Origin: Propionibacterium ruminifibrarum
Lineage (GTDB): Bacteria; Actinomycetota; Actinomycetes; Propionibacteriales; Propionibacteriaceae
Direction of reading: 5' to 3'
Assembly: GCF_900289195.1 (NCBI RefSeq)
Contig: NZ_OMOH01000005.1
Span: 90,001 to 122,000 of the forward strand
DNA: 32,000 nucleotides
Shown here piece after piece: positions 837 to 32,000 of this stretch (its first letter is position 1; each line of letters begins with the position of its first letter). The notes below the pieces were generated by a model. The model was not told the origin of the DNA. It did not search any database and saw only the letters and a program-made list of their open reading frames with translations. Made by a program: the position numbers and the translations under genes.

Positions 837-853
837 TGTCCCTATGTTTCTTG

Positions 854-2912: not shown

Positions 2913-3914
2913 TCAGACTCTGTCCACGTCCTCAACCGTGAAGAGCCCCTTCTTCCTCTCGTAAGATTGCAGTCTCTGTATGTCTGATCCGAAGGGTGAC
3001 AACAGGGCTACGATACCCGAATCCGTCCGGGCGTCACGCTTCAGGGTTTCCTTGACCGGTCGAGTGTACAGTCCCGTCGGACTGAGATCGGTGAACATTA
3101 TATCATTATGATGGGACAGCCTCGTCAATCCTGCTTGGAAGTCAAAAGGGCGTCGCAGGATGTCGAAGAGCATGCCAGGGCCAGGCTTCTCGTGTCGGCC
3201 ATCTACACAGCTCTGCACAACGATGGGTGAGCATCTACTTGAAACCGGGGGGCATCTCTCGAGGAAGGGCGATCGGATTCGTTCCATTAATTGGCTGTGG
3301 AAGGCATACGCCACCGACATACGTTGTGCGAGGATCCCGTTCCGGTGGCAGAATTCCATGATACGGTTCAGCACGGGTCGCATCCCCGTGAACACGAGCG
3401 TGTCGCTCCCGACCCGTCCGGCAAGAGCGCTCTCGAAGGTACTCAGCTGCTCTAAGGCTTCGTCATTAGGGGCAACGACGCTGATCATACCCTGTCCGTA
3501 AGGGTCCTTGTCTGCGGATGCGAATGTTGACTTCAGTAAAGTTACCTGCAACGCAAGGATCTCAAAAAGAGCCTCGACGGAGATTTGGCAGGACACTGTC
3601 AGAGCGACATACTCTCCTAGGGATGTACCCATGACGATGTCGGGTTCATACCCCCGGAACATGAGCATATCCGTGAGGGCTAGTTGGATGGCGGGGATGG
3701 CGAAATGTGTTTCGGCCAGAGAATCGAAGGTGTCGCTGGGGTGCCTCGCCGGATCGTAGATCACCTCTGAGACAGACCGTCCGCCAAGGTCCAACACTAT
3801 GCGTGCATAACGTTCGAGACACGCGTGAAACACGATGTCGTTCTCGTACAGTTGGCGCCCCATCTGATAGTACTGGCTCCCCTGACCTGAATATAGGAAT
3901 ACTCGCTTCACCAC
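2913..3914 (-). CDS. Atypical acyltransferase-like protein (FabD/AT fold; possible acyl hydrolase or non-malonyl acyltransferase)
   Basis: The N-terminus VFLYSGQGSQYYQMG carries the GQGSQ loop. The nucleophile elbow reads MGTSLGEYVAL (Thr codon 3626-3624, Ser codon 3623-3621) instead of GHSxGE. YAFHSQLM retains the catalytic His. The position of the malonyl-binding Arg (xxRGxxM) reads ALQVTLL. Confidence 0.85.
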   Translation of the reverse strand: MVKRVFLYSGQGSQYYQMGRQLYENDIVFHACLERYARIVLDLGGRSVSEVIYDPARHPSDTFDSLAETHFAIPAIQLALTDMLMFRGYEPDIVMGTSLGEYVALTVSCQISVEALFEILALQVTLLKSTFASADKDPYGQGMISVVAPNDEALEQLSTFESALAGRVGSDTLVFTGMRPVLNRIMEFCHRNGILAQRMSVAYAFHSQLMERIRSPFLERCPPVSSRCSPIVVQSCVDGRHEKPGPGMLFDILRRPFDFQAGLTRLSHHNDIMFTDLSPTGLYTRPVKETLKRDARTDSGIVALLSPFGSDIQRLQSYERKKGLFTVEDVDRV

Positions 3915-3919
3915 GACGC

Positions 3920-4609
3920 CTAATCGGTAACGGGCAAGCTTGAAAAGGTGAAGAGATTCTTCTGTCCCCGTCTCATTCTGAACTTGCAGAACTGATCAAC
4001 CTTGTCGATTTGTAGGTAGATATTCGTCTTCTTCGCTTGGGCGAAGGTCAGGCCGTTCGCCACCTGGTAGGAATGCCCGGAGAGAATCCGCACGTCGTCG
4101 GCCATCAGCGTTACTAGCCTCCTGAGGCTGTGGAATAGCTCTGTTGCCCATTCCATGGACTCGCAAATTCCGCAACCATCCGGGAACAAGGTGTCTCCTG
4201 TGAACAGGTCGCGGCCCCACTGGTAGCAGGCGCTCCCAGGGGTGTGTCCTGGTGTCATAAAACACGTGACGTGGTTGCGCCCGATGACAAGTCTTTGTCC
4301 TTCGCAGACCAGAAGCGATGAGTAGCCTTGTCCATAACCGCTCCACTGGTGCTCCAACTCGGACACCACCAGCTGAGCACCGTATCGTTTAACGAAACGT
4401 TCGGCCAAATTCGTATGGTCTAGATGGGAATGGGTTATGAGCACATATCTCAACCGCACACGGAGGCCGTCTAGGACCGCTGTGATCTTGTCCATCTGCC
4501 ATGCAGGATCTATGATCGCGGCTTCGCGACTCACTTCATCGACCAAGATATAACAGTAATTGATGAAGGGGCCGAAGCTGGTCTCGACGGGGATAGTCGT
4601 CGTGGTCAT
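3920..4609 (-). CDS. Metallo-beta-lactamase-fold hydrolase (glyoxalase II-like; PksB/BaeB-like context)
   Basis: It has the HxHxDH motif in VLITHSHLDHTN, followed by TPGHTPGS, TGDTLF and LSGHS metal-ligand motifs in the canonical order. Its start overlaps the PPTase stop by 4 nt. Confidence 0.85.
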   Translation of the reverse strand: MTTTTIPVETSFGPFINYCYILVDEVSREAAIIDPAWQMDKITAVLDGLRVRLRYVLITHSHLDHTNLAERFVKRYGAQLVVSELEHQWSGYGQGYSSLLVCEGQRLVIGRNHVTCFMTPGHTPGSACYQWGRDLFTGDTLFPDGCGICESMEWATELFHSLRRLVTLMADDVRILSGHSYQVANGLTFAQAKKTNIYLQIDKVDQFCKFRMRRGQKNLFTFSSLPVTD

Positions 4610-5427
4610 CGAAAATCCTCTTTATTAGACACAATCTCGATTAGCTCCTTTGTTGGACTCCAATTCTTAGGGTGGGCGAGTGACATGACCCATCTGTTTG
4701 CGAAGATGGTCTCGCACTCGAATTGCGTGAAAGTGCTGAATGTGGACCGCAGGCATTGTGTATGTGTATCCCATGCAGCGTGAGCCAAGGTATAGGCCGT
4801 TTCGGGGGCGGTCAGGCCGATCCGGATGGCTTTACCGAGGGCTTCACGCTGGGTCCACAGAGAGAAGAGCGCCATTTCGTATGGCAGTTCAACCCCAAAT
4901 TCCGTCAGCTGTGCCATTCCGGCTGTGAGTACGCGCTCAAGGGCATTGGACCGTCGGGGATCGAGTACCTCGATATCGAGACCTAACGGACATTCAGCAT
5001 CACATGCAACGGCTGCAATGTGATTGCCTGTATGACTCAGCGATAGTCCCACCGCTGTGCTTCCATGCACCACCGGTTGTCCGAATACACCGGAGGTGAT
5101 CGCAACCTCACAGGGTTCAGCAACTATCCCCCATTCGGACAGTGCAGCCTTGGCCACCATGCGTCCAAAAAGGAAACTTCGCTGACGTCGATTTACAGGC
5201 AGGTGAGCATAACGATCAAGTTCATAGGGATGCAGCCATGCGCGTGCAATCTCGTTCATAACCTTAGGAGCTATCGCGGGTGCAACCCACGTCGCTAAGT
5301 GTGCCTGGAATTGCCTGGCGTCTCTGGAAAAGGCGATAGAATCTATAACTGGACCACCGGTCTCTCCTGGCCATATCGAATCGATCCGATGGACGTCGTC
5401 CATCGTTGTTGCACCATCTGTGATCAC
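4606..5427 (-). CDS. Sfp-type 4'-phosphopantetheinyl transferase
   Basis: It has PLGLDIEVL (the G-x-D-x-E Mg site) and FSLWTQREALGKA (a W/F-x-x-K/R-E-A-x-x-K motif). The GTG start at 5427 overlaps the KS stop (GTGA). An alternative ATG lies at 5403. Confidence 0.85.
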   Translation of the reverse strand: MITDGATTMDDVHRIDSIWPGETGGPVIDSIAFSRDARQFQAHLATWVAPAIAPKVMNEIARAWLHPYELDRYAHLPVNRRQRSFLFGRMVAKAALSEWGIVAEPCEVAITSGVFGQPVVHGSTAVGLSLSHTGNHIAAVACDAECPLGLDIEVLDPRRSNALERVLTAGMAQLTEFGVELPYEMALFSLWTQREALGKAIRIGLTAPETAYTLAHAAWDTHTQCLRSTFSTFTQFECETIFANRWVMSLAHPKNWSPTKELIEIVSNKEDFR

Positions 5428-6668
5428 GACACATAGCCATTCTCAGTTGTGTCCGGAGCCGAGAGGACGACGCTAGCGTTCACACCGAAGAAGGCGAAGG
5501 TGTTACACAGTGCGTGGGAAACAACTCCATGACGCACGGTGGACTTAGGCGCCCATGAAAACTCTTCAATTGGTGAAGTCAGACCCGGGGTAGAATGAAG
5601 GAATCCATTATTAATTTGCAGAGCAGAAGCGACGATTCCAACCAGTCCAGCAGCGTTGAAGCCATGTCCCAAGAGTGCCTTTGTGGCATTGATAACAGGT
5701 GGCATTTGACGCCTTCCGAACAGGTTTCGAAGCGCAGACGCTTCGCAAGAATCGCCCTGGGGCGTACCGGTCGCATGGGCGTTGACATAATCGATGTCCT
5801 CGGGCCCGATGCCCGCATCCGCAAGGGCGAGCTTCATCGTGATGATCTCAGCCTCCAGATCCGGTTCGGCGCCAGTGGTCGGGTGCTGGCATCCTCCGAC
5901 TCCAGACAGGCGGATTCCTCCGCTAGGTTCCATCGCAGGGTTGCTGATCATCACTGCAGCCGCCAAAGGAACGGGGACGGTCCCCGCGTGACTGTTGTCA
6001 AAGGGACGGATGGGTCCGGAATCGGTGACTCGAGACAGGATGCCTAGATTCGAACACATAGCCAAGAATGACTCCGATGGCTCGAAAGCCGGTGCAACGA
6101 CAAGGCAGTAATCCAACAGTCCTGCACGTATCATCGCCACGGCAACAGCCACAGCTGAATTCGATGCTGCAGATTGGGTCCCAATAACCGACCCATAGCC
6201 ACGGAACCCGAGGGCCCGTGAAAGCAGCCCTAGTATCCAAGGGTCGAGGCGCGATAGACGTCTTCCCGGCGTTACTATTTGAGGACTCACGGCGTCCTGA
6301 CGGATCAAGGCTTCCAACGTTGAGTCTTGGTGATTATTGGCGGCCACTATGCAGCCGACACGGTCGAGTTTCGTATTCAACTCAACGGTGCCCCATGCTT
6401 CTAGGGCGGCCACCAATGTTGCCCTCAAGGGGGTTGACAGGCGCCGACCGGTGCATGCCGCACGTCCTGCAGCTTCTGAGGAAGCACACAGCTTTTCTAT
6501 GGAATCCCGGAAGCCGGACTCTGCCATGCTGGGTACTGGTTCCTCCGCGTCGACGAGTTGTAAACTCTCACTCTCCTCCAAACGGCGCGCCAATTCGTCG
6601 GTTCCAACGATATCAGGGCCAACGAATCCCATTCCGGAGATGATCGGATCGGTGGCTCGATTAGGCAC
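5424..6668 (-). CDS. Free-standing decarboxylating ketosynthase (active-site Cys->Ser) of the HMGS beta-branching cassette
   Basis: It is a 414-aa KS fold with N-terminal IISGMGFVGP. The active-site position reads GTQSAAS (Ser codon 6173-6171) where PKS/FAS KSs have TACSS. Both catalytic His motifs are kept (NAHATGT, LLGHGF). It sits next to a discrete ACP, and the HMGS lies across the divergent region. Confidence 0.85.
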   Translation of the reverse strand: MPNRATDPIISGMGFVGPDIVGTDELARRLEESESLQLVDAEEPVPSMAESGFRDSIEKLCASSEAAGRAACTGRRLSTPLRATLVAALEAWGTVELNTKLDRVGCIVAANNHQDSTLEALIRQDAVSPQIVTPGRRLSRLDPWILGLLSRALGFRGYGSVIGTQSAASNSAVAVAVAMIRAGLLDYCLVVAPAFEPSESFLAMCSNLGILSRVTDSGPIRPFDNSHAGTVPVPLAAAVMISNPAMEPSGGIRLSGVGGCQHPTTGAEPDLEAEIITMKLALADAGIGPEDIDYVNAHATGTPQGDSCEASALRNLFGRRQMPPVINATKALLGHGFNAAGLVGIVASALQINNGFLHSTPGLTSPIEEFSWAPKSTVRHGVVSHALCNTFAFFGVNASVVLSAPDTTENGYVS

Positions 6669-7026
6669 GTTGCGCCGCCAAAATCTCTGAGATCTCGCCG
6701 ATCGAGCGTGCCTCTTGGAAACTCATCAGATCGCATCTGATGCCCAGGTTATTCATGGCCGTGATTATGATATCGACACGGTCGATCGAATTCGCACCCA
6801 AATCCTTGAGAAGAGTGTCGTCATTCGCCAAACTGAGGTCCGTCTCGTAGAGTACATCCTCGACGGCAGTCATCAGAGCCTTGCGTGCTTCATCCATGTA
6901 GTTCATTCCTCTTCTATACATCTTATTGGTTTCTTCGACCATGCGCCATGCACGCTGCCACGGTTCATCATCGTCGTGATTATCAGAATTAGATACCAGT
7001 GACTCTCGTGAATGACTTGCGGTCAT
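6661..7026 (-). CDS. Discrete acyl carrier protein (donor ACP of the beta-branching cassette)
   Basis: LLKDLGANSIDRVDIIITAMNNLG carries the phosphopantetheine Ser at codon 6789-6787. The ORF from ATG 7026 (TAATG overlap with the permease stop) gives 121 aa with an acidic 40-aa N-terminal extension. Internal ATGs at 6906 or 6897 (the latter ~9 nt after AGAGGA) would give a canonical ~80-aa ACP. Confidence 0.85.
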   Translation of the reverse strand: MTASHSRESLVSNSDNHDDDEPWQRAWRMVEETNKMYRRGMNYMDEARKALMTAVEDVLYETDLSLANDDTLLKDLGANSIDRVDIIITAMNNLGIRCDLMSFQEARSIGEISEILAAQRA

Positions 7027-8423
7027 TAAGGGTCATTAGATGCCATTAGGTGAACATCGATCGGGCGCGCCCTAGCGTCCGCATCGAAAGATGCATTAAC
7101 GACGCGTCGGGCGTTCCTCCGCTGGCGTGCCGTCTTTGCATTTTGATGCATCATGTCGACGATTATCTGATTGATCACGCCTAAGCCTGGCTGGATTGTT
7201 GCAAGTAGGGCAAACAATATCATCATCCCGAGCACCACGAAGACCTGACCTGCCCTCACGAACGGGAAAAAGTACTGACCGCCGAACAGAGTGGAGGCCG
7301 CCACTCCCACATAGATACCGTTAGTGCTGAAAACCGCTGCGAACAGCAGAGCCAAGATCACCGCTGGTATGAAGGCAAAGATCGTCAGAAAGAATGTTTC
7401 GGCGAAGATCATCGCATAGATCTTCGTCTTGGAGAAGCCAATGGCGCGCATGGCACCCAATTCTCCCAGTCGTTGGTGGAGGCTCAGCTTGATGGACGAC
7501 TGCATACCCAAGGCAATGAGTAAGAGGATGAATCCACTAAACACGGCAAAAGTTATCCGGACCAGCTTGGGGGCGTTGTTATAATAATAATTCGCCTCAA
7601 GATAGGACTCGGCGCGGAGCTCCGCACCCGCTTGGGTCAGTTTCGCGTCGAGATCATCGGCAGTTTCCTGCGCTTTGTCCTGATTTGTGAGGAAGATGAG
7701 ATCCGAATCGAAATGGTCCGCAGGAACCGCGTAGAGATCATGGGCCATATCCCCGTCGACAAATCCATAAAAATTGTCAAAGAAGGCACCGTCAGAGTAG
7801 ATGCCGCTGATAGAGAGGGATGTCGTCGTAGTTTCGTTACCATCAGTCTTTGTCACGACATCCACGGTGTCACCGACGCTCACGCCCATGCTGTCAGCCT
7901 TGGATTTGCAGATTGCCAGCTCGTGGGTACCTGCCTGGGGTAGTTCACCCTCGGCCATGGTGATGGACGCGTTGTCCAGCAGGAATTTATCCTGGCCATG
8001 GGCTAAGCCGTAGATGATGAACGAGAGGTCCTGTTTCTCATCCGTCTTCAACGTCGCATTGCGCCGGATGATTGGGAACTCGTGCTCGATGTCTTGTTGG
8101 TGCTCATCGATCCAGATACGTGCTGTGCTCAATGCCTTTTCGTTTCGCTCCTCCTCGTCAGTGTGGTAAGTTAATGTCTTGCTGACGTTAATAAACCTTT
8201 GAGGGGATGTCTTGTCAGTGCTTGCAAGATCATCCCAGAGCATGAGAACATGACCAGCCTGGATGGTCGTGTAGCTCTTGAGCATCTGTGTCTGGGCGCC
8301 ATTGAATGAAAAAAATGTGATCAGGAGGATGAGGGTACAGAGGAAAATTGCGCCGGCAAGAAATGCCGAACGTCTGATGTTTTTGCCGAGGTTTCTGAAT
8401 GCGATCTTCACGAGTACGGGCAT
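7026..8423 (-). CDS. ABC transporter permease, FtsX/MacB-type (permease 2)
   Basis: It has an N-terminal TM helix (FLAGAIFLCTLILLITFF), a ~250-aa extracytoplasmic domain, then three C-terminal TM helices. The FtsX signature region is LGAMRAIGFSKTKIYAMIFAETFFL. A GGGAGG Shine-Dalgarno lies upstream of ATG 8423. Confidence 0.85.
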   Translation of the reverse strand: MPVLVKIAFRNLGKNIRRSAFLAGAIFLCTLILLITFFSFNGAQTQMLKSYTTIQAGHVLMLWDDLASTDKTSPQRFINVSKTLTYHTDEEERNEKALSTARIWIDEHQQDIEHEFPIIRRNATLKTDEKQDLSFIIYGLAHGQDKFLLDNASITMAEGELPQAGTHELAICKSKADSMGVSVGDTVDVVTKTDGNETTTTSLSISGIYSDGAFFDNFYGFVDGDMAHDLYAVPADHFDSDLIFLTNQDKAQETADDLDAKLTQAGAELRAESYLEANYYYNNAPKLVRITFAVFSGFILLLIALGMQSSIKLSLHQRLGELGAMRAIGFSKTKIYAMIFAETFFLTIFAFIPAVILALLFAAVFSTNGIYVGVAASTLFGGQYFFPFVRAGQVFVVLGMMILFALLATIQPGLGVINQIIVDMMHQNAKTARQRRNARRVVNASFDADARARPIDVHLMASNDP

Positions 8424-8439
8424 CTTGGATTCAACCTCC

Positions 8440-9702
8440 CTAGTCTTCGTTCAGCGCTTCGGCGGGATTCCTAGAGGATGCTTGAGCTGATGGTATAAGA
8501 GATGACAAACCAACGATCATCAGGATAACCAGTGTTCCCGGGAGCCCTGCCAACGGGCTGTAGTGAAGGGTGAAGGTACTTCCTATTACGTCATCCGCTG
8601 GCGACCCGACTGCGAACTCGTGAGTTCTCAAGGCTGCACCGATGAGCCAAGCCAAGAGGGCCGCTACTATTGCACCCGCAGCGCCACAAGCGAGAACTTC
8701 AATCAAGAATATCATGATGATCCTTGTCTTGTCATACCCAATTGCGCGCAGTGTCGCGATTTCCTTACTTCGTTCCAACGCGACTCCAGCGACCATATTC
8801 ACGATGAGAATACAGACGATGACCATGAGGATCAGCAAGAAGACGTAGAAGATACCAGTGAACGCCGTGCTGATGCCACTGATGAATCCGCCTTGGGTAG
8901 TCCAATCAGTCACCAAGAATTCGTCGCCAAGTGTTTCGTCAACGTTCCCACGAAGGCTCTTTGCGCTAGCAATGCTATTTCCGAAGGCCATGACCTCGGT
9001 GGCTTCACCTTGAGCCAGCCCCTTGAGCTGTTGTCCGACATTGAAGGAGATATAAGCGAGGTTGTCTTCAAAGCCGGATAGGGACTGGGCGTCACCAATG
9101 CCTACCAAGGTCGCGCGCAAGGTAACCACCGTTCCGTTTATGGCCTCGGCGCTCAGCGTAACGGGATCCCCAGGGGAGACCCCCAGTTTTGAAGCAGTGC
9201 TGCTACTGAGCACAACTTCGTCGTTATGACCCGAACCCAGACCAGACCCAGTTTCGAGTTTTAAATTCTGCAGATAGTGGTCGATTTCCCCCCTGAATCC
9301 AATAGCAACCACTCCAACTTGTTCCCCTCCGTCACGCACGGTCGTCTCGTTGCTCACCTGCCCGACGAGCATGTTGAGTCGGATAACCGGTGTGGCCTCA
9401 ACGTTAGTGAGGCGATCAAACACGTCGAGTGCAGTGTCGACCTGGGTAGAGGTGAAGTGATTGGACGTGCCCCAGTCGGCGCTCATGTCGATGATGGGTG
9501 CCACATCATCAGTGTTGGGCCTGACTTGGACATGGCCAAGCAGGGAATCAGTGATTGCCTCGCTCGTCTTGTTCTGTGCGGTGGACACGAATGCGTTGAG
9601 TAGCAGATAGACTAGGACCGAGACGCCTACGAACATCGCGATCGTGATGGATCTGTTCCTGTTATGCTGCGCATTGCGTAAGGACAGTAGGAAGAATCTC
9701 AC
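8440..9702 (-). CDS. ABC transporter permease, FtsX/MacB-type (permease 1)
   Basis: The topology matches the neighbouring permease, and the FtsX region is IATLRAIGYDKTRIIMIFLIEVLACG. The GTG start at 9702 is preceded by AGGAGA at an 8-nt spacing. Confidence 0.85.
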   Translation of the reverse strand: MRFFLLSLRNAQHNRNRSITIAMFVGVSVLVYLLLNAFVSTAQNKTSEAITDSLLGHVQVRPNTDDVAPIIDMSADWGTSNHFTSTQVDTALDVFDRLTNVEATPVIRLNMLVGQVSNETTVRDGGEQVGVVAIGFRGEIDHYLQNLKLETGSGLGSGHNDEVVLSSSTASKLGVSPGDPVTLSAEAINGTVVTLRATLVGIGDAQSLSGFEDNLAYISFNVGQQLKGLAQGEATEVMAFGNSIASAKSLRGNVDETLGDEFLVTDWTTQGGFISGISTAFTGIFYVFLLILMVIVCILIVNMVAGVALERSKEIATLRAIGYDKTRIIMIFLIEVLACGAAGAIVAALLAWLIGAALRTHEFAVGSPADDVIGSTFTLHYSPLAGLPGTLVILMIVGLSSLIPSAQASSRNPAEALNED

Positions 9703-9726
9703 TTGGTTGTCTCCTAACGAGTGGGG

Positions 9727-10464: not shown

Positions 10465-10533
10465 GCGGGAACCTTCTTAATATGGTAGGGCGGGAAACGA
10501 GATCTGCCTTAGGCAACTCGTCCGGTTGGGCGA

Positions 10534-15268: not shown

Positions 15269-15289
15269 GTCGTTCGTGACGAGGAGTAT

Positions 15290-25798: not shown

Positions 25799-28700
25799 AC
25801 TCATCCGCGAATGGATACTCAAGGGGATCCGCAGTGGACTTCTCGAGCCGGCTCGGGGCGTTGAACTGATTAATTCCGGAGCCCATCTCAATACCCGTCT
25901 GGGACGCCTCGTCCGCGTTCCCGCCCCGCTGTCGGGATCCCACTCGCGATCGGTGGGCCGTCGTCTCGATATCTCGGGATCGCGTGCCAGCACGTGGGAC
26001 GACGCCCTGCGGGCGGCACGCGAACGTGACGGAGCGTATCCCCAGACTGTGGTGATCCGGGGTATCGATGATGCCGACCGTGCGATGCCGTTGGTCGTAT
26101 TCGACGCCTTGAGGCGTCTGATCACTCAGTCACTCGAAAACAGTCGCGGCGAACAACTGCGATTGATATGCGCAGTGGACAATGATAGTGCTCTCGCGGA
26201 GGGTCTGGCAGCGATGTTTGCCTCAGCCAACAGCGAGGAGAACTTGCTGGCCGCGACCGTGGTGTCAGGCAACTGGACCGAGGACATCCTCACGGCAGCC
26301 GCCTGCATGCAAGGTCCGGTCGATGCACATTGGACGGTCGACGCAATGCAGATCTTTGGAGATCGACTGGAGATGCGTCGGCTCGATACCGCTCCACTCG
26401 AGGGCATCGTGCGGACCGGGGGAACCTACGTCATCGCCGGTGGGCTCGGGGCACTGGGATTCGCGCTGTCGCGTCACCTCAGCCGCACATACCAGGCCCG
26501 GCTGGTGCTCATCGGCACACGCCCGAAAGCTGACGTTGAGACGCGGATGGAGGCGCTCAGGAAACTGGGTGGCGATCCTGAATACATGGTTGTCGATCTC
26601 AGTCGCGAAGACGCCACAGGACGCCTTCTGGAAGCGTTGGAAGGTCATAGCGAGGTGCGTGGTGTCGTCCAGTGCGCTGGTGTGACCTCCGATGCCTTGC
26701 TCAGGCAGGCACCTGCCGAGTCCGTCGCACAGGTGATCAACACCAAGGTGCGCGGGGTTGCCGCTCTCGACGCGGCTACGGCGGGTTGCCAACTGGACTT
26801 CTTCGCCGCCTTCTCGTCGATCAGTGGACTTCTGGGTAACTTCGGGCAGTCTGACTATGCATTCGCTAATGCCTACCAGATGGGCTGGATGCGTGAGCGC
26901 GCTGCTCGCGTTGCTGCTGGCGACAGGCACGGCCGAAGCGTTGCCATCGCTTGGCCATTCTGGGAGGACGGCGGTATCAGCGCTCCCCGGCAGGCCGTCA
27001 ATCGGCTGACACGCGATCTGGGTATCGAACCCTTGCAGACCTGGTTGGGAATGGGCCTGTTCGAGACGGCGCTGACCAGTGATGAGCCGGTGTTCGCGCC
27101 GGTCACGGGTTCCGATCTGCGTATCCCGACCGGCATTCCCGCAGAAGCTCCCAAGCAGCCGGTGTCCAGGCAGGAGGCGGCGGATGTCCGATCACGATTT
27201 GTGAGCCATCTTGTCCAAGTCTATGCGACAGTTTACGAGGTCCCTGCTGATGAGATTCGCCCCGAGGTGAACCTGCAGTCGTACGGACTCGACTCCGTAC
27301 TCGTGTCGAAAGTGGCAGCGAGGCTGGTCAGGATCATCCCTAACCTCCCTACCTCGGTCTTCTTCGACTGCTCAACGATCGATGAGATTGCTGATCGCCT
27401 TCTGGATAAATTCCCGGAGCAGCTTGCCGATCAGTTCGGGTCAATGGCGTCGATTCCTGCGGAGCAGCCTGTGACCGAGCCTGCACATGACGTGACCTCC
27501 GAGGTCCCGGCCGGTTCGCCACTGTGCACCAATGTCATGGCGTCTGACATGGACCTGGTCACAGCACCCGTCGATGATCGTGGCTCCGGGAAGTGCCACC
27601 GCACAGTCCATCAGAATCGCAGGGGCATCGCCATTGTGGGCTACGCCGCGCAGATGGCCGGAGCGGACAATGCCGAGGAGATCTGGCAGACCCTGGCCGA
27701 GGGATTAGACCGGGTGAGCACGTTCCCGGCTTCCCGACGCACTGATCTGGTTGGGAACAACAGCGTGCCGCTCCAGTTCGAACAGGTCGCCGAGGTTGAC
27801 TGGCACCAGCCGGGAAGTTTCATTGACGACCCTTGGGGATTCGATGCTCGCTTCTTCGGGGTTTCCGCGAGGGAGGCCCGATGTATGGATCCCCAGGAGC
27901 GAGTGGCGCTAGAGAAGACGTGGCAGGCGTTCGAGGACGCCGGTATCACTCCCGAAGCGGCCGCCGAGAGCACGGATGGTGACGTCGGTGTCTTCGCGGC
28001 CATGACGAACTTTACCCACTACCTTCTCGGTGCCCATGGGATCGCCTCGGATTCCTACATCCCGCAATCCTCCGGGTGGTCGCTGGCGAATAGGATCTCT
28101 TCCGCATTCGATTTCCATGGTCCTAGTCAATGCGTCGATACTGGTTGTTCATCCTCCCTGTACGCGTTAGTGCAGGCATGCCAAGCGCTGACGCAAGGTG
28201 ATTGCCGCATGGCTGTCGTCACTGCAGCCAATCTCTATCTCCATCCCCTGAAGTTTGCCATGCTCAGGGAGCGTAATATGTTGTCCGACAAGGGGAGATG
28301 TTTCACATTTGGTGCGAATGCCGACGGTTTCGTCCCCGCTGAGGGAGCAGCTTCGTTGATCCTGCGTCCGGTAGAAGACGCTGAACGTGATGGCGACGAC
28401 ATCAAGGCAGTCGTGTGGTCTTGGGCTGTGAATCACGGCGGGTCGACGCACGGGTACACCGTTCCGTCGCCGAAGCTGCAGGCATCTGTTATCAGGAAGG
28501 CGCTCGAGGCTGGAGACCTGAGCGCGGACCAAGTGAGCCTCATTGAAGCGCACGGCACCGGCACACCATTGGGTGATCCGATCGAGATAGAGGGTCTGAC
28601 CGATGTTTTCAGCGACGTGGCGAGGGAGACCCCCCTGTTCGTCAGTTCGATCAAATCGAATTTCGGCCATGCGGAATCCATGGCGGGACTGGCATCGGTG

Positions 28701-31160
28701 ATCAAGATCATGAAGCAGATGGAGCATCGTCAGATGGCTGGGTCCCTGCATTCGCAGGACGTGAACCCGCGCATCCAGTTGGCAGGTACCGGGCTGGAAA
28801 TCGTCCAGTCACTAACGTCATGGACTGCCGAGCCCAAGTTTGCCGGCACCAGTTCATTTGGTGCTGGTGGTTCGAACGCCCACGTTATTCTGCGGGAGCC
28901 ATTCCCGAGGCTGCTGGCAGCGGACGACCCTGAAGAGTTCGAGGACCGCCATTTGTGGCCCTTCCTGCTCAGCGCAGCCGATGAGAAGGCACTTGGGCAG
29001 GTTGTGGACCAGTTTATTAGTTGGGTCCGCGACAACGACCACGATCTACGAACCATCGCTCTCGAACTCGACGCATGTCGAACTGCCTTGGACGAACGTC
29101 TGTGCGTGTTCGCGGCGGATCGTCAGGGACTCGTGAGTGCGCTCGAATCCATGCGGTCCGGTGTCGTTGGTGACACCGTGCTCAGGGGTTCGGTGCGGGA
29201 CATCAATCCGGTGGATGCATCCACGGTGGGTCGTGGCATCCCGGCTGCTGATCTGCGTCGAGGGTTGGACTGGATCCGAGGGGTGGACGTGGACTGGCGC
29301 CTTGGGGAACTGCCCCGCCATTCCCGTCTCAATCTGCCGCTGTATCCCTTCCAGCACAAGCAATATCACGTCACCTTGTCCGCTCAACCACCACAGTCTG
29401 GAGACCAAGTCGTGACCAGGACGATTCAACGAATTAACTTCCTTCGTGACATCCCCCGTGGTGCATACGGTCACAATGCGGACGGATCCGAGGTACTCGT
29501 CCAGGAACGCCCCCACGACGGGGTGACCGTGCTGAGGATGAACAACGTTGCCCAGTCGAACCTGCTCGACTCACCTTTGTATCTCGCACTGTCCGAAGCA
29601 TTCCACAGGATCAACCAGGATGATACGGTCAAGGTCGTCGTCCTCACAGGAACCGACAGGGTCTTCTGTATGGGAGGCGTTCAGCAGTACCTCGACGAGA
29701 TCGTGTCGGGTGACGTCACCTGCTCAGAGGCGCGAATGATCTACCTTGGGTTACCTTCGGTGAGGGTGCCCGTGATTGCAGCGGTTTCCGGTCATGCTCA
29801 TGGGGGTGGACTCACCTTGGGTCTGTCAGCGGACATTCCGGTGCTTGCCGAGGAATCCCTGTACGCGGCTCCGTTCATGAATCTCAACTTAACCCCTGGT
29901 GCCGGGTCGACATATTTCTTCGCCAAACGTTTTGGCCAGGAGTTGGCCAACGAGATGTTCTACACCGGTCGGGACTACACCGGCGCCGAGATAAAGCAAC
30001 TGTGCCCATCGATGAGGGTGATGCCAAAGGCTGCGGTGATGGACGAGGCGATGAGAATCGCCCGCGGAATCTCGAAGAAATCCTTGAAGGCGCTGTTCCT
30101 GCTTAAGCGTACACAGAGTGACAAGGTGTTCGAGGAATTGCCCGATCACATCGCCCGTGAAGCTGCGATGCAGCAGGAACTCTTCTCCGCTGAGCAGATT
30201 GAGGTGGCGCGTGACAAGATCGCCAAGGCCTTCCGGATACCGGATCGACTAGTCGAGGAGAACGGCCTGCACGCAGCCTGTGGTGCAGCCACCGTTCCAG
30301 CGCCCACCGCTGCGGAGGATCGTTTGCCCGGTCAGACCGTGTCGTTGCGTCCGCTGACGGCCGCAGGGGGTCCTGTTCGGATGTCTACCCAGGGCGCGTC
30401 CGGCGTTCGTCTGGCTGAACTGCGAGTTGCGAAGGCCGTCGCTGATGAGTCCCAGCAGCCGCGGACCGTCGAGGTACGACACATCGAATCGAATCAGGAA
30501 GCTATGGGTCGGATTCTGGCGCAGATACTGCGCGAGGACTTGCGCGCTTTGGACTTGCGTCGCAGCGTGACTGACCTTGGGCTCGATTCTGTAGGGGCGA
30601 TCGAATTTATCCAACAGGTTAACCAGCGTTTCCACTCGTCCTTCGATACCACTGTTATTTACCAGTACCCGAGGGCCATGGACTTGCTCGAGGGGATCGC
30701 CGCCGCCGTGGCAGCAGACGACATCTCACTCGAACATGTCGATGTCGAACTGAACCGTGATGGCGTGCAGTCGATCTCCCCATCAAGGTCCGGTGCATCA
30801 GCGAAACTTCAGGAGGACGGCATTCGAAACCATGTTTTGGAGGCGCTGCGCGTGGTGTTGCGTCTTGATGCTGACGAGGCTCTCGACCTTCGGAAGAACT
30901 TCCAGGAACTGGGGCTGGACTCGGTGTCGGGCATCGAATTCGTCAGTGCCGTCAACACTAAGCTTGGAACTGCTATGCAGGCGGCCGATCTGTACGGCTA
31001 CGGCAGTGTCTGGGAGTTCATCACTGACATCACCGTTGCCGTACCGGCCGGTGACGCCCTGACCGCACAGCGTGACGACGAGATCGGTGCAGTGCTTGCG
31101 GCCCTCACTGATAATCGGCTCAGTATTGAGGGTGCTATCTCTGCGATGGAGCAAAAATGA
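25788..31160 (+). CDS. trans-AT polyketide synthase 2: KR-ACP-KS-ECH-ACP-ACP
   Basis: It is a 1790-aa ORF. ATG 25788 lies 7 nt after AAAGGA and overlaps the PKS1 stop by 11 nt. The domain motifs are listed under the sub-features. Confidence 0.95.
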   Translation: MSAELIREWILKGIRSGLLEPARGVELINSGAHLNTRLGRLVRVPAPLSGSHSRSVGRRLDISGSRASTWDDALRAARERDGAYPQTVVIRGIDDADRAMPLVVFDALRRLITQSLENSRGEQLRLICAVDNDSALAEGLAAMFASANSEENLLAATVVSGNWTEDILTAAACMQGPVDAHWTVDAMQIFGDRLEMRRLDTAPLEGIVRTGGTYVIAGGLGALGFALSRHLSRTYQARLVLIGTRPKADVETRMEALRKLGGDPEYMVVDLSREDATGRLLEALEGHSEVRGVVQCAGVTSDALLRQAPAESVAQVINTKVRGVAALDAATAGCQLDFFAAFSSISGLLGNFGQSDYAFANAYQMGWMRERAARVAAGDRHGRSVAIAWPFWEDGGISAPRQAVNRLTRDLGIEPLQTWLGMGLFETALTSDEPVFAPVTGSDLRIPTGIPAEAPKQPVSRQEAADVRSRFVSHLVQVYATVYEVPADEIRPEVNLQSYGLDSVLVSKVAARLVRIIPNLPTSVFFDCSTIDEIADRLLDKFPEQLADQFGSMASIPAEQPVTEPAHDVTSEVPAGSPLCTNVMASDMDLVTAPVDDRGSGKCHRTVHQNRRGIAIVGYAAQMAGADNAEEIWQTLAEGLDRVSTFPASRRTDLVGNNSVPLQFEQVAEVDWHQPGSFIDDPWGFDARFFGVSAREARCMDPQERVALEKTWQAFEDAGITPEAAAESTDGDVGVFAAMTNFTHYLLGAHGIASDSYIPQSSGWSLANRISSAFDFHGPSQCVDTGCSSSLYALVQACQALTQGDCRMAVVTAANLYLHPLKFAMLRERNMLSDKGRCFTFGANADGFVPAEGAASLILRPVEDAERDGDDIKAVVWSWAVNHGGSTHGYTVPSPKLQASVIRKALEAGDLSADQVSLIEAHGTGTPLGDPIEIEGLTDVFSDVARETPLFVSSIKSNFGHAESMAGLASVIKIMKQMEHRQMAGSLHSQDVNPRIQLAGTGLEIVQSLTSWTAEPKFAGTSSFGAGGSNAHVILREPFPRLLAADDPEEFEDRHLWPFLLSAADEKALGQVVDQFISWVRDNDHDLRTIALELDACRTALDERLCVFAADRQGLVSALESMRSGVVGDTVLRGSVRDINPVDASTVGRGIPAADLRRGLDWIRGVDVDWRLGELPRHSRLNLPLYPFQHKQYHVTLSAQPPQSGDQVVTRTIQRINFLRDIPRGAYGHNADGSEVLVQERPHDGVTVLRMNNVAQSNLLDSPLYLALSEAFHRINQDDTVKVVVLTGTDRVFCMGGVQQYLDEIVSGDVTCSEARMIYLGLPSVRVPVIAAVSGHAHGGGLTLGLSADIPVLAEESLYAAPFMNLNLTPGAGSTYFFAKRFGQELANEMFYTGRDYTGAEIKQLCPSMRVMPKAAVMDEAMRIARGISKKSLKALFLLKRTQSDKVFEELPDHIAREAAMQQELFSAEQIEVARDKIAKAFRIPDRLVEENGLHAACGAATVPAPTAAEDRLPGQTVSLRPLTAAGGPVRMSTQGASGVRLAELRVAKAVADESQQPRTVEVRHIESNQEAMGRILAQILREDLRALDLRRSVTDLGLDSVGAIEFIQQVNQRFHSSFDTTVIYQYPRAMDLLEGIAAAVAADDISLEHVDVELNRDGVQSISPSRSGASAKLQEDGIRNHVLEALRVVLRLDADEALDLRKNFQELGLDSVSGIEFVSAVNTKLGTAMQAADLYGYGSVWEFITDITVAVPAGDALTAQRDDEIGAVLAALTDNRLSIEGAISAMEQK
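26030..27100 (+). other. KR2 domain
   Basis: TYVIAGGLGALGFAL, VVDLSRED, VVQCAGVTSDALL (Asp retained at the LDD position), SSISGLLGNFGQSDYAFANAY. Confidence 0.85.
27190..27420 (+). other. ACP3 domain
   Basis: VNLQSYGLDSVLVSKVAARL; Ser codon 27294-27296. Confidence 0.9.
27621..28899 (+). other. KS4 domain
   Basis: GIAIVGYAA...DPQERVALE...CVDTGCSSSLYA (Cys codon 28146-28148)...EAHGTGTPLGDPIE...KSNFGHAESMAG...GAGGSNAHVIL. Confidence 0.9.
29490..30240 (+). other. Integrated enoyl-CoA hydratase (crotonase) domain, ECH2-type
   Basis: VTVLRMNNVAQSNLLDSPLYLALSEAFHRINQDDTVKVVVLTGTDRVFCMGG...VSGHAHGGGLTLGLSADIPVLAEESLYAAPFMNLNLTPGAGSTYF. It lies after the KS4 linker (LPLYPFQHKQYHV) and before the tandem ACPs. 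Confidence 0.85.
30480..30707 (+). other. ACP4 domain (first of tandem pair)
   Basis: RRSVTDLGLDSVGAIEFIQQVNQRF; Ser codon 30588-30590. Confidence 0.9.
30816..31037 (+). other. ACP5 domain (second of tandem pair)
   Basis: RKNFQELGLDSVSGIEFVSAVNTKL; Ser codon 30921-30923. Confidence 0.9.
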
Positions 31161-32000
31161 ACCAGGAATTGGCTAGGTCTATCCTTGAGAAGGTCCGTGA
31201 TGGCCGACTTGATTCTCAGGTAGCGGCTGAATTATTGAGGGCAACCGCCGTCGCGCCCGAACCAGTTGGGGATCTTGATTCCTCACCGGGAACTGACGAG
31301 CCGATCGCCGTGATCGGAATGTCGGGGGTATTCCCGGACTCGCCTGACATCGATTCGTTGTGGGACCACCTCGTGAACCATCGAGACATGGTGCGCGAGG
31401 TGGAACCCTGGCGTTGGGACCCGAGTATCCACTATTCGCCCGAGCGTCCCGGTACCAGCGGCCCCGACTGCAAGTGGCAGGGCATGGTGCCTGATGTCGA
31501 CAGGTTCGATCCGCTGTTCTTCTCGATCTCCCCCAAGGAGGCCGAGGTTATGGATCCCCAACAGCGACTCCTCCTCCAGGAGGCCTGGCGGGCGGTCGAA
31601 GATGCGGGGTACACACCCACGCAACTGAGCAGTGGGACGTGTGGGGTGTACATCGGGGCCAATCACGGCGACTACGAGTTCAGGCTGGATCACAGTGCAT
31701 CCGAGCTGGCCGCACAGACGATGACAGGCTCACTGACATCAATCCTGGCAGCTCGGGTCTCGTACCACATGAACCTTACCGGCCCGAATCTTGCGATCGA
31801 TACCGCCTGCTCCTCATCACTAGTGGCACTGTGCCTGGCTGCGGAGGCGCTTCGCAAGGGAGAATGCGACACGGCTCTGGCTGGCGGCGTTGCGATCTTT
31901 ACAACGGAGCGCCTGTTCGTCATGGCTAGTCGAGGAGGCATGCTCTCCCGCACTGGGCACTGCCATGCCTTCGACGATGACGGCGATGGATTCGTCCCCT
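31157..32000 (+). CDS. Polyketide synthase 3 (5' partial; N-terminal docking helix plus KS5; continues beyond the window)
   Basis: It is not in the ORF track because no stop is reached. ATG 31157 overlaps the PKS2 TGA (ATGA). My own translation reads MNQELARSILEKVRDGRLDSQVAAELLRA...DEPIAVIGMSGVFP...FFSISPKEAEVMDPQQRLLLQEAW...AIDTACSSSLVALCLAAEAL (Cys codon 31808-31810)...HCHAFDDDGDGFVP. Confidence 0.9.
   Translation, partial: MNQELARSILEKVRDGRLDSQVAAELLRATAVAPEPVGDLDSSPGTDEPIAVIGMSGVFPDSPDIDSLWDHLVNHRDMVREVEPWRWDPSIHYSPERPGTSGPDCKWQGMVPDVDRFDPLFFSISPKEAEVMDPQQRLLLQEAWRAVEDAGYTPTQLSSGTCGVYIGANHGDYEFRLDHSASELAAQTMTGSLTSILAARVSYHMNLTGPNLAIDTACSSSLVALCLAAEALRKGECDTALAGGVAIFTTERLFVMASRGGMLSRTGHCHAFDDDGDGFVP
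31295..32000 (+). other. KS5 domain (truncated by window end)
   Basis: It has the EPIAVIGMSG, DPQQRLLLQ and DTACSSS motifs. The HGTGT region lies beyond nt 32000. Confidence 0.85.

What the first reader, a model, noticed from the sequence alone, without database searches (positions are those of the whole stretch)
2913..32000. trans-AT PKS cluster with an HMGS beta-branching cassette, built as two divergent translationally coupled operons; product not recognisable
Seen:
- Five KS domains have intact Cys (codons at 15839, 21200, 24512, 28146, 31808). None is followed by a functional AT.
- A discrete AT-ER protein (10534-12801) carries GHSLGE and the malonyl-type Arg.
- Protein breaks fall directly after KS3 and after the tandem ACPs.
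- Genes abut or overlap: ATGA at 31157-31160, 11 nt at 25788-25798, 4 nt at 4606-4609 and 5424-5427, 8 nt at 6661-6668, and TAATG at 7024-7028.

Established: AT-less modules served by a free AT(-ER), modules split across polypeptides, and integrated crotonase domains define trans-AT PKSs (the bacillaene, pederin and mupirocin families).

Inference:
- The module string reads enoyl module (KS1-AT0-DH-KR-ACP), KR-less DH module, split beta-hydroxy module (KS3 // KR-ACP), beta-branching module (KS4-ECH-ACP-ACP), then KS5.
- I cannot match this order plus the accessory set (two FtsX permeases, MBL hydrolase, GTSLG AT-like protein) to a characterised pathway from memory. The product may therefore be unknown.
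- Neither a loading module nor a release domain is in view, and the line continues past 32000.
Basis: partly seen in the sequence, partly recalled or inferred. Interest (0 to 1): 0.7.

Follow-up and report, generated by a model that had tools for sequence, protein, structure and literature searches.

The report
Orphan trans-AT polyketide cluster, rumen Propionibacterium
This is a real, intact gene cluster for a large "trans-AT" polyketide assembly line with a methyl-branching toolkit, carried by the rumen bacterium Propionibacterium ruminifibrarum; its product is unknown, and its only close relatives are uncharacterised clusters in related bacteria.

Summary
The window comes from Propionibacterium ruminifibrarum.

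It encodes a trans-AT PKS with a full HMG-synthase beta-branching cassette, arranged as two divergent, tightly packed operons.

- **Accessory set:** this is the standard bacillaene-type toolkit. The "GTSLG AT-like protein" is a PksD-type acyl hydrolase, and the MBL protein is glyoxalase-II/SolJ-like.
- **"AT0" after KS1:** a catalytically dead AT remnant, detectable only by profile-profile comparison. It belongs to a Pfam-blank domain family found after N-terminal KSs, including in a Myxococcus fulvus PKS.
an ACP-like domain nested in the KS flanking subdomain of the KR-less DH module.
- **Downstream:** the line continues at least 23 kb past the window, with KS5 to KS9 and a second beta-branching module. 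All ORFs are intact. About 20 kb of the contig stayed out of reach, so no release domain was seen.
- **Relatives:** no characterised pathway is close. The best non-self matches are 45-59% identical orthologues in Brooklawnia cerclae and unnamed assemblies; everything else seen is 53% or less over part of the query.

Verdict: a genuine orphan cluster, a new member of a known kind, of moderate interest.

The parts
2913..3914 (-). Acyl hydrolase (AH, PksD-like 'proofreading' AT homologue), 333 aa; GTSLG nucleophile, Gln at the FabD-Arg117 position, xFHS His
   Evidence: Pfam Acyl_transf_1. Best PDB hit is PksD 8avz, E 2.7e-34, nearly full length. Motifs read. AH criteria taken from bioRxiv 10.1101/2023.08.11.552765.
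3920..4609 (-). MBL-fold hydrolase (glyoxalase-II-like, SolJ-like), 229 aa; THSHLDH metal motif
   Evidence: Pfam Lactamase_B. NCBIfam SolJ 191.5 bits, below the 350-bit cut-off. PDB hits are glyoxalase II enzymes.
4606..5427 (-). Sfp-type 4'-phosphopantetheinyl transferase, 273 aa
   Evidence: Pfam ACPS + 4PPT_N.
5424..6668 (-). Free decarboxylating KS of the HMGS cassette (PksF type), 414 aa; active-site Cys replaced by Ser (GTQSAAS), both His kept
   Evidence: Pfam KS N+C. NCBIfam PRK07103 polyketide KS at 235 bits, below its 445-bit cut-off, so similarity only. Motifs read.
6661..7026 (-). Free donor ACP of the HMGS cassette (AcpK type), 121 aa (LGANS)
   Evidence: Pfam PP-binding. NCBIfam PRK07117 at 55 bits, below its 79-bit cut-off, so similarity only.
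7026..8423 (-). FtsX-family ABC permease 1, 465 aa
   Evidence: Pfam FtsX. Weak LolCE/DevC similarity.
8440..9702 (-). FtsX/MacB-type ABC permease 2, 420 aa
   Evidence: Pfam FtsX + MacB_PCD.
9727..10464 (-). ABC ATPase (LolD/DevA/MacB-like), 245 aa; probable exporter with the two permeases
   Evidence: Pfam ABC_tran. NCBIfam LolD/DevA/MacB-type hits, all below their cut-offs.
10534..12882 (-). Trans-acting AT-ER didomain protein (malonyl-type AT + PfaD-family enoyl reductase); ATG at 12801 or TTG at 12882
   Evidence: Pfam AT + NMO. NCBIfam fabD 300 bits and pfaD_fam 547 bits, both above cut-off. PDB hits: DfnA and MlnA for the ER; PksE, PksC and DisD for the AT. GHSLGE, Arg and GPFHS read.
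12921..12994 (.). Perfect 74-bp palindrome (36-nt arms, 2-nt spacer) in the divergent promoter region; function unknown
   Evidence: the repeat finder. Unique in the window, with 0 matches expected by chance.
13233..14474 (+). HMG-ACP synthase (HMGS), 413 aa; Glu/Cys/His catalytic residues present
   Evidence: Pfam HMG_CoA_synt N+C. PDB hits CurD E 2.7e-136 and PksG E 5e-131. Residues read.
14465..15268 (+). Free ECH1 (dehydrating crotonase, PksH type), 267 aa
   Evidence: Pfam ECH_1. PDB hits 4nnq E 1.7e-46 and PksH 3hp0 E 1.5e-32.
15290..25798 (+). PKS1, 3502 aa: KS1 - degenerate AT remnant - DH - KR - ACP | KS2 - nested ACP-like - DH - ACP | KS3
   Evidence: Pfam. Motifs.
17012..18025 (+). 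'X' domain of PKS1 (aa ~575-912): dead AT remnant (GHSLGE -> GRDQGL) fused to a helical region with no PDB fold match; the last ~40 residues match the end of KS flanking subdomains of trans-AT PKS structures
   Evidence: No Pfam hit. Flanking-subdomain ends match PksL/PksJ structures. About 34 homologues, each after an N-terminal KS. hhalign against 60 ATs gives 93.7% probability, E 1.9e-7. AF2 model pLDDT 80, with no PDB match.
22130..22318 (+). ACP-like domain (PKS1 aa ~2281-2343, LGFVS) nested inside the KS2 flanking subdomain, before the KR-less DH
   Evidence: Pfam PP-binding 22.9 bits, lying between the two halves of the linker profile. Aligns full-length with the cluster's ACPs and is conserved in orthologues.
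25788..31160 (+). PKS2, 1790 aa: KR - ACP | KS4 - ECH2 - ACP - ACP (beta-branching module)
   Evidence: Pfam. ECH domain best hits are PksI E 1.4e-36 and CurF E 2e-31. 100% identical to SPF68545.1 / WP_119715698.1.
31157..32000 (+). Start of PKS3 (2443 aa in full: KS5 - DH - KR - ACP | KS6 - ECH2); only KS5 N-terminal part is in the window
   Evidence: Pfam. The full gene is seen in L002/L006, which match the window with 0 mismatches over 16,213 nt.

Best explanation
The region 2913-32000 is the left half of an intact, probably functional trans-AT polyketide synthase cluster of Propionibacterium ruminifibrarum.

**Shown from sequence and homology**
- The minus-strand operon supplies the trans-acting parts:
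  - a malonyl-type AT fused to an enoyl reductase;
  - a PksD-type acyl hydrolase;
  - a glyoxalase-II-like MBL hydrolase;
  - a PPTase;
  - the donor half of the beta-branching cassette (an ACP plus a Cys-to-Ser decarboxylating KS);
  - an ABC/FtsX exporter.
- The plus-strand operon starts with HMG-ACP synthase and ECH1, then the megasynthases.
- Visible modules:
  - M1: KS-[dead AT remnant]-DH-KR-ACP
  - M2: KS-[nested ACP-like]-DH-ACP
  - M3: KS//KR-ACP
  - M4: KS-ECH2-ACP-ACP
  - M5: KS-DH-KR-ACP
  - M6: KS-ECH2//ACP-ACP
  - M7: KS//DH-KR-ACP
  - M8: KS-DH-KR-ACP
  - M9: KS-[nested ACP-like]-DH...
- All nine KSs keep Cys-His-His.

**Inferred mechanism**
- The free AT loads malonate on every module ACP.
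- At M4 and M6 the beta-keto intermediate on the tandem ACPs is attacked by acetyl-ACP. That acetyl-ACP is made by the KS(Ser) from malonyl-ACP, and the attack is catalysed by HMGS.
- ECH1 then dehydrates the adduct and the in-line ECH2 decarboxylates it, leaving a beta-methyl branch.
- The DH-KR modules give enoyl units, so the chain should be a methyl-branched, largely unsaturated (polyene-like) polyketide carrying at least one hydroxyl.
- The AH probably removes stalled short acyl groups, and the ABC/FtsX system probably exports the product.

**Not determined**
- The starter unit, the sites where the ER acts, the chemistry of M2 and M9, and chain release.
For: - **Source.** PKS2 and the MBL protein are 100% identical to P. 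ruminifibrarum proteins SPF68545.1 and SPF68534.1. The species lies in Propionibacteriaceae.
- **Domains and catalytic motifs.**
- **Cassette parts typed against solved structures.**
  - HMGS matches CurD and PksG.
  - The free ECH matches PksH.
  - The in-line ECH matches PksI and CurF.
  - The AH matches PksD.
  - The AT-ER matches DfnA, MlnA, PksE and DisD.
- **Downstream continuation with intact ORFs.** PKS3 is 2443 aa, the next protein 768 aa, and PKS4 3599 aa.
- **Other assemblies.** The locus is found in two further assemblies (SRR7030480 and MAG GCA_040307615.1) with no stop codons.
- **Orthologous syntenic clusters at 44-58% identity.** They occur in Brooklawnia cerclae and in three unnamed assemblies, which argues that the architecture is maintained by selection.
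- **KS similarity tracks the upstream module type,** as expected for a collinear trans-AT line.
Against: - No release domain, loading module or regulator was seen. About 20 kb of the cluster contig could not be reached.
- M2 and M9 lack a KR, so their DH has no obvious substrate.
- DH1 and DH5 have DxxxR instead of DxxxQ/H.
- The acceptor ACPs lack the Trp flag: Phe in M4, Ile/Val in M6. Phe is tolerated in virginiamycin (PMC10006238).
- The left border is a nest of IS elements.
- Assemblies of other strains or samples show a locally divergent tract, so the cluster is mobile or mosaic.
- No expression or metabolite data exist.
Confidence: 0.85

Rival explanations
1. It is a known, already characterised pathway (for example a bacillaene-, myxopyronin-, kalimantacin- or bongkrekic-acid-type cluster) that the reader simply failed to recognise.
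For: - The accessory set is the same kind as in bacillaene.
- Module 1 (KS-X-DH-KR-ACP-KS) is collinear, at 34-36% identity, with the N-terminus of Myxococcus fulvus PKS AGS77291.1.
Against: - Search of 5.8 billion proteins with PKS2: the best non-self hit is 45% identical (unnamed Logan contig), and all the rest are 40% or less over partial coverage.
- Search with the ACP-ACP-KS protein: the best hits are 55-59% identical (Brooklawnia cerclae and unnamed assemblies), none from a named pathway.
- No plasmid match.
- No paper in the searched library links P. ruminifibrarum or Brooklawnia to a polyketide.
- No NRPS module appears in the visible modules, unlike bacillaene or kalimantacin.
Confidence: 0.04
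2. It is a decaying relic: a horizontally acquired, IS-flanked cluster that is no longer functional.
For: - Nested IS110 and IS5-like transposases directly abut the left end.
- There is a perfect palindrome between the operons, at which three assemblies break.
- One AT remnant is dead, and some DH motifs are atypical.
- The release function was not seen.
Against: - About 45 kb of continuous ORFs without a stop or frameshift.
- All nine KS triads, the HMGS triad, the AT and AH dyads and the ACP serines are intact.
- ORFs are intact in two further assemblies.
- The dead AT remnant and the nested ACP-like domains are conserved family features, not fresh damage.
Confidence: 0.07
3. The cluster is functional, but its product is a cell-associated polyene pigment or protective lipid rather than a secreted antibiotic or toxin.
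For: - Runs of DH-KR modules with beta-methyl branches predict a conjugated, methyl-branched polyene segment.
- The transporter components most resemble LolCDE/DevCA/MacB-type systems, which move lipids and lipoproteins as well as antibiotics.
Against: - The sequence says nothing about where the product ends up.
- From my own knowledge, MacB/FtsX exporters are also common self-resistance or export genes in antibiotic clusters.
- ER sites are unknown, so the polyene may be interrupted.
Confidence: 0.25

Closest known systems
Bacillaene synthase cluster (pks/bae) of Bacillus subtilis / B. velezensis
   Same: The same trans-acting toolkit is present:
- AT-ER: PksE is the best AT hit.
- AH: PksD.
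- An MBL-fold hydrolase; equating it with PksB/BaeB rests on my own knowledge.
- Donor ACP and KS(Ser).
- HMGS: PksG.
- ECH1: PksH.
- ECH2: PksI.

Both lines are polyene-forming, with many DH-KR modules and split modules.
   Different: - No NRPS modules are visible here.
- ECH2 is built into the PKS, twice, rather than being a free protein.
- There are two beta-branching modules.
- PKS identity is 40% or less.
- The host is an anaerobic actinobacterium.
Myxococcus fulvus PKS AGS77291.1 (probably MxnK, western chain of myxopyronin; identity with MxnK not verified here)
   Same: - It starts with the same module block, KS-X-DH-KR-ACP-KS. This block is collinear over about 2200 aa at 34-36% identity and includes the Pfam-blank X domain.
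- The myxopyronin pathway also uses an AT-ER (MxnA) and an HMGS cassette (PMC12728655).
   Different: - Its second KS has lost the HGTGT His (ECQATGT), whereas KS2 here is intact.
- The downstream modules, total length and host differ.
- Myxopyronin is a two-chain alpha-pyrone. No MxnB-type KS was seen here.
Curacin/jamaicamide-type beta-branching modules (CurF ECH2 with tandem ACPs)
   Same: An ECH2 decarboxylase is embedded in the megasynthase next to tandem acceptor ACPs. CurF ECH2 and CurD HMGS are among the best structural relatives.
   Different: From my own knowledge, those are cis-AT systems with a halogenase and cyclopropane or vinyl chloride chemistry. No halogenase is present here, and the ACPs have no Trp flag.
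Orphan trans-AT PKS clusters of Brooklawnia cerclae and of unnamed assemblies (SRR17497097, SRR29667955)
   Same: - True orthologues with the same protein boundaries and domain order.
- PKS1 is 50% identical, PKS2 44-45%, PKS3 52-53%, the ACP-ACP-KS protein 58% and PKS4 53%.
- Both the X domain and the nested ACP-like domains are conserved.
   Different: - Their GC is 69%, against 58.5% here.
- In SRR29667955 the donor ACP and KS lie directly upstream of HMGS on the same strand, not in a divergent operon.
- None is characterised.
Orphan ~70-kb trans-AT PKS of some Streptococcus mutans strains (Liu et al. 2016, PMC5116633)
   Same: - It is described with a PPTase, a hydrolase, an HMGS cassette, 14 AT-less modules and three transporter genes.
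- An S. mutans ACP-KS fragment is 42% identical over 80% of the ACP-ACP-KS protein.
   Different: - The relationship is distant, and module order was not compared here.
- Its product is not given in that paper.

Membership tests
trans-AT (AT-less) modular PKS | KS-containing modules without a functional in-line AT | tested here: met
   Pfam finds no Acyl_transf_1 domain in PKS1-PKS3, the 768-aa protein, or the domains listed for PKS4. The only AT-derived segment (PKS1 aa ~575-630) has GRDQGL in place of GHSLGE.
trans-AT (AT-less) modular PKS | Free-standing malonyl-type AT encoded in the cluster | tested here: met
   The AT-ER protein scores 300 bits against fabD (cut-off 261). It has GHSLGE, the Arg and GPFHS. 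Its best structural relatives are PksE, PksC and DisD.
trans-AT (AT-less) modular PKS | KS followed by a flanking subdomain (KS-AT linker remnant), and modules split between proteins | tested here: met
   RhiE-like and CurL-like linker hits follow KS2-KS6. KS1's flanking ends match PksL/PksJ structures. Splits occur at KS3//KR, KS6-ECH//ACP-ACP and KS7//DH.
HMGS beta-branching cassette | HMG-ACP synthase with the Glu/Cys/His triad | tested here: met
   CurD E 2.7e-136 and PksG E 5e-131. ASESG, QACFG and AFHTP read.
HMGS beta-branching cassette | Donor ACP plus decarboxylating KS with Cys replaced by Ser | tested here: met
   The free ACP has LGANS. The free KS has GTQSAAS and keeps both His residues.
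HMGS beta-branching cassette | ECH1 (dehydratase) and ECH2 (decarboxylase) | tested here: met
   The free ECH resembles PksH. The in-line ECH resembles PksI and CurF. A second in-line ECH sits in PKS3.
HMGS beta-branching cassette | Acceptor ACPs (often tandem) carrying the Trp flag six residues after the Ser | tested here: not met
   The ACPs are tandem in both modules, but the flag position is Phe, Phe (M4) and Ile, Val (M6). Phe occurs in the functional virginiamycin ACP5a/5b, and the Trp is not essential (PMC10006238). This weakens the flag as a criterion, not the assignment.
Acyl hydrolase (AH, PksD/PedC type) | Ser-His dyad kept; the malonyl-binding Arg replaced (usually by Gln or His); the His before the Ser not conserved; a C-terminal latch | tested here: met
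   GTSLG; Gln 25 residues after the Ser; YAFHS. The alignment to PksD covers residues 9-316 of 327. Criteria come from bioRxiv 10.1101/2023.08.11.552765.
Acyltransferase domain (for the 'AT0' region of PKS1) | GHSxG nucleophile, xFHS His, and an AT fold | tested here: not met
   There is no Ser or His at these positions. No Pfam hit. BLASTP E>1. The AF2 model (pLDDT 80) has no PDB match. Local homology to the AT elbow region is real at the profile level: 93.7% probability, E 1.9e-7. It is therefore an AT-derived remnant, not an AT.
A characterised polyketide pathway (any) | Same gene order with high protein identity across the PKS proteins | tested here: not met
   The best non-self hits are 45-59% identical, and none is named as part of a characterised pathway. 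MIBiG, antiSMASH and TransATor were not available, so the test is by sequence search and literature only.
Complete, functional assembly line | Loading function and chain-release domain (TE, R or C) | not testable with these tools
   The last ~20 kb of the contig could not be fetched. PKS1 starts directly with a KS. X-bearing modules in other PKSs also sit at protein N-termini.

The most novel reading that the evidence does not exclude
This cluster and its Brooklawnia and metagenomic orthologues form a Propionibacteriaceae-specific family of trans-AT assembly lines. On this reading the family makes a structurally new, doubly beta-methyl-branched polyene-type polyketide in an anaerobic rumen actinobacterium. 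Its conserved 'KS-[ACP nested in the flanking subdomain]-DH-ACP' unit would then be a previously undescribed module type with its own chemistry, for example dehydration or double-bond shift without an in-module KR.
Probability: 0.4. Interest if true: 0.6.

Novelty: new member of a known kind. Interest (0 to 1): 0.45.

Why it matters
- **Unusual host.** From my own knowledge, trans-AT PKSs with HMGS cassettes are mostly studied in Bacillus, Pseudomonas, Burkholderia, myxobacteria and symbionts. An intact example of about 60 kb or more in a rumen Propionibacterium, with orthologues in Brooklawnia, extends the class to fermentative Propionibacteriaceae. It is a concrete genome-mining lead for a new polyketide from the rumen.
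- **Two architectural oddities bear on how trans-AT modules evolve and are read.** One is a conserved dead-AT/helical 'X' domain after N-terminal KSs. The other is ACP-like domains nested in KS flanking subdomains.
- **Caveat.** Orphan trans-AT clusters are numerous, and nothing here breaks the known rules.

Tried and rejected
1. **Exact look-up of the HMGS protein:** not on record.
3. **Megablast of 22 kb against plasmids:** no match.
4. **Walking downstream:**
   - A homologue search with the 117-aa start of PKS4 found nothing.
   - A metagenome scan with the last 330 aa seen found nothing.
   - An exact 41-mer scan found nothing.
   - As a result, the last ~20 kb of the contig and any release domain stay unseen.
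5. **'AT0' as a recognisable AT:**
   - Rejected at the single-sequence level by Pfam, BLASTP and phmmer against the PDB. It was also rejected at the fold level by Foldseek.
   - It was retained only as a remnant after hhalign.
6. **Literature searches** for P. ruminifibrarum, Brooklawnia plus polyketide, and rumen/Propionibacteriaceae trans-AT: nothing relevant. The transPACT paper does not mention these taxa.
7. **X domain equated with the 'X' drawn in myxopyronin schemes:** plausible but not verifiable from the texts held.
8. **Sigma-70 promoter scan of the divergent intergenic region:** no site. This is uninformative for an actinobacterium.
9. **GC content as evidence of horizontal transfer:** considered and not used, because the host genome's GC was not available.


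Full report
**Observation.**
- The ORF map gives nine closely packed genes on the minus strand (2913-12882). On the plus strand it gives HMGS, ECH, PKS1 (15290-25798, 3502 aa), PKS2 (25788-31160, 1790 aa) and the start of PKS3 (31157 onward).
- The five KS active-site Cys codons lie exactly at 15839, 21200, 24512, 28146 and 31808. Each KS seen whole (KS1-KS4 in the window, KS5 via the downstream locus) also keeps both catalytic His motifs.
- The junctions read from the sequence are as stated: ATGA at 31157-31160, 11 nt at 25788-25798, ATGA at 4606-4609, GTGA at 5424-5427, 8 nt at 6661-6668 and TAATG at 7024-7028. The other same-strand gaps are 5-69 nt.
- Pfam finds no AT domain in any PKS protein.
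- The free AT-ER has GHSLGE, the malonyl-binding Arg and GPFHS. It scores above the curated cut-offs for fabD and the PfaD-type ER family.

**Source.**
- PKS2 and the MBL protein are 100% identical to SPF68545.1 and SPF68534.1 of Propionibacterium ruminifibrarum, on a 291-kb contig. The species belongs to Actinomycetota, Propionibacteriaceae.
- The same locus occurs in Logan assemblies ERR1938110 and SRR7030480 and in a Propionibacteriaceae MAG.
- The Logan locus matches the window with 0 mismatches over 16,213 nt. I therefore used it to read downstream.

**What the accessory genes are.** They form the ordinary trans-AT toolkit, not an unmatched set.
- HMGS is closest to CurD and PksG, with E 1e-136 to 1e-130. 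Its Glu/Cys/His triad is present.
- The free ECH is PksH-like, so ECH1. The in-line ECH of PKS2 is PksI/CurF-like, so ECH2.
- The free KS has Ser for the active-site Cys (GTQSAAS) and keeps both His residues. This is the decarboxylase type that makes acetyl-ACP on the free ACP.
- The 333-aa "GTSLG" protein is an acyl hydrolase:
  - Its best solved relative is PksD, at E 2.7e-34 and nearly full length.
  - It keeps the Ser-His dyad.
  - It has Gln exactly 25 residues after the Ser. ATs have the malonyl-binding Arg there, and that substitution is described as diagnostic of AHs.
- The MBL protein is glyoxalase-II-like. Its best named family is the solanimycin hydrolase SolJ, but it scores below that cut-off.
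- A PPTase and an ABC ATPase with two FtsX permeases complete the operon.

**The assembly line.** Modules visible in the window and in the downstream loci:

| Module | Domains | Protein |
|---|---|---|
| M1 | KS1-X-DH-KR-ACP | PKS1 |
| M2 | KS2-(ACP-like)-DH-ACP | PKS1 |
| M3 | KS3 // KR-ACP | PKS1 / PKS2 |
| M4 | KS4-ECH2-ACP-ACP | PKS2 |
| M5 | KS5-DH-KR-ACP | PKS3 |
| M6 | KS6-ECH2 // ACP-ACP | PKS3 / 768-aa protein |
| M7 | KS7 // DH-KR-ACP | 768-aa protein / PKS4 |
| M8 | KS8-DH-KR-ACP | PKS4 |
| M9 | KS9-(ACP-like)-DH... | PKS4 (3599 aa, of which 3330 were read) |

- There are thus two beta-branching modules, not one.
- All nine KSs have Cys-His-His.
- KS similarity follows the upstream module type:
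  - KS2, KS6 and KS9 all follow DH-KR modules and share 50-55% identity.
  - KS5 and KS7 both follow beta-branch modules and share 48%.
  - KS3 sits nearest to that pair, at 42-46%.
  - KS1, KS4 and KS8 stand alone.
- The inferred product is a largely unsaturated chain with two acetate-derived beta-methyl branches and at least one hydroxyl.
- The starter, the ER sites, the chemistry of M2 and M9, and chain release are all unknown.

**"AT0".**
- The 467 residues between KS1 and DH1 give no Pfam hit. Only their two ends match the flanking subdomains of solved trans-AT KSs.
- The inner ~330 residues therefore sit where an AT would sit.
- A search of 1.84 billion representative proteins found about 34 PKS proteins with a homologous domain. 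It nearly always lies at residues ~580-960, straight after an N-terminal KS and before a DH. The sampled members have no Pfam annotation there and no AT anywhere.
- One member is Myxococcus fulvus AGS77291.1, whose first ~2200 residues are collinear with PKS1. It is probably MxnK of myxopyronin, but I could not confirm this.
- An AlphaFold model built from 18 homologues (pLDDT 80, pTM 0.72) has no PDB fold match. The best hit has E 0.74 and TM of 0.16 or less.
- Profile-profile comparison with 60 AT domains aligns the first ~53 columns to the AT nucleophile-elbow region, at 93.7% probability and E 1.9e-7. GHSLGE is replaced by GRDQGL.
- So it is an AT-derived, catalytically dead remnant fused to a diverged helical region.

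**Nested ACP-like domains.**
- In M2 (PKS1 aa ~2281-2343) and M9 (PKS4 aa ~3060-3130), a PP-binding-like domain lies between the two halves of the KS-linker profile.
- Both align full-length with the cluster's ACPs.
- Both are conserved in the orthologues. The Ser is kept in four of five sequences and is Thr in one.
- Both occurrences fall in the KR-less DH modules.
- I found no description of this arrangement, though I did not search the literature for it specifically. Its role is open.

**Is it known?**
- PKS2 searched against 5.8 billion proteins: self, then a 45%-identical full-length orthologue from an unnamed assembly, then hits of 40% or less over partial coverage.
- The ACP-ACP-KS protein: 55-59% identity to Brooklawnia cerclae and unnamed assemblies.
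- These relatives are syntenic, but none is characterised.
- Literature searches gave nothing for these taxa.
- An orphan S. mutans trans-AT cluster is described with a similar accessory set: PPTase, hydrolase, HMGS cassette and three transporters. It is a distant relative at best, with 42% identity on one fragment.
- MIBiG, antiSMASH and TransATor were not available.

**Is it a relic?** Probably not.
- For function:
  - About 45 kb of ORFs are uninterrupted.
  - The catalytic residues are intact.
  - The ORFs are also intact in two further assemblies.
- Caveats:
  - I could not reach the last ~20 kb of the contig, so no release domain was seen.
  - The left border is a nest of IS elements.

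**Verdict.**
- This is a new member of a known kind: an orphan trans-AT/HMGS cluster in an unusual host, with two conserved architectural oddities.
- Interest is moderate, 0.45. It is a good genome-mining lead but not a surprise in kind.

Noticed in passing
window 12921-12994: A perfect 74-bp palindrome (36-nt arms, 2-nt spacer) lies between the divergent AT-ER and HMGS operons and is unique in the window. By my coordinate arithmetic, three assemblies of this locus (Logan ERR1938110_2, Logan SRR7030480_10625 and MAG contig JAWRJE010000086.1) all end at window-equivalent ~12965-12977, the centre of the palindrome. This could be an assembly artefact of the hairpin, an operator, or a rearrangement junction. 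In the orthologue L009 the donor ACP and KS lie co-directionally upstream of HMGS instead.
   Followed up: partly
window 510-2851: An IS110-family transposase gene (854-2134) sits between the two halves of a DDE_Tnp_4 (IS5-like) transposase. The C-terminal part is at 510-857 and the weak N-terminal part at 2222-2851. These nested IS elements directly abut the last cluster gene.
   Followed up: partly
window 28492-31816 (L006 1-3325) versus downstream: Against Logan ERR1938110 (L006), the MAG (L004) and Logan SRR7030480 (L005) differ at about 2.3% of positions across the PKS2 C-terminus and the start of KS5. Over the next 19 kb they differ at only ~0.05%. About half of the changed codons in the divergent tract are non-synonymous. 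This looks like a recombination tract boundary inside KS5.
   Followed up: partly
window 22130-22318; L006 ~21500-21700 (PKS4 aa ~3060-3130): ACP-like domains are nested inside the KS flanking subdomain of the two KR-less DH modules. They are conserved in the orthologues, with the Ser kept in four of five sequences.
   Followed up: partly
window 17012-18025 and proteins P0244-P0322: A Pfam-blank domain family of ~300 aa (a dead AT elbow plus a helical region with no PDB fold match) recurs right after N-terminal KSs in about 34 representative trans-AT PKS proteins. These include a Myxococcus fulvus PKS and proteins from Paenibacillus and Tumebacillus.
   Followed up: yes
window as a whole vs L003, L007, L008: The cluster here has 58.5% GC: ~52-55% in the accessory operon and ~60-62% in the PKS genes. 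The orthologous clusters in Brooklawnia cerclae and SRR17497097 have 69%.
   Followed up: no
PKS1 aa 947-956 and 1114-1123; PKS4 aa 1865-1874: DH1 has HVVGDVAILP, with the Gly shifted by one position. DH1 and DH5 both have DxxxR where DxxxQ/H is usual. DH2, DH3 and DH6 have the canonical His motif (HxxxGxxxxP), and DH2 and DH3 also have DxxxQ; the Asp motif of DH6 lies beyond the sequence read.
   Followed up: no
L010 (Logan SRR28693986_41): A more distant trans-AT cluster also has a stand-alone ACP-KS protein and a 1228-aa ACP-KS-DH protein. The latter stands for 24 member sequences. The cluster appears uncharacterised.
   Followed up: no
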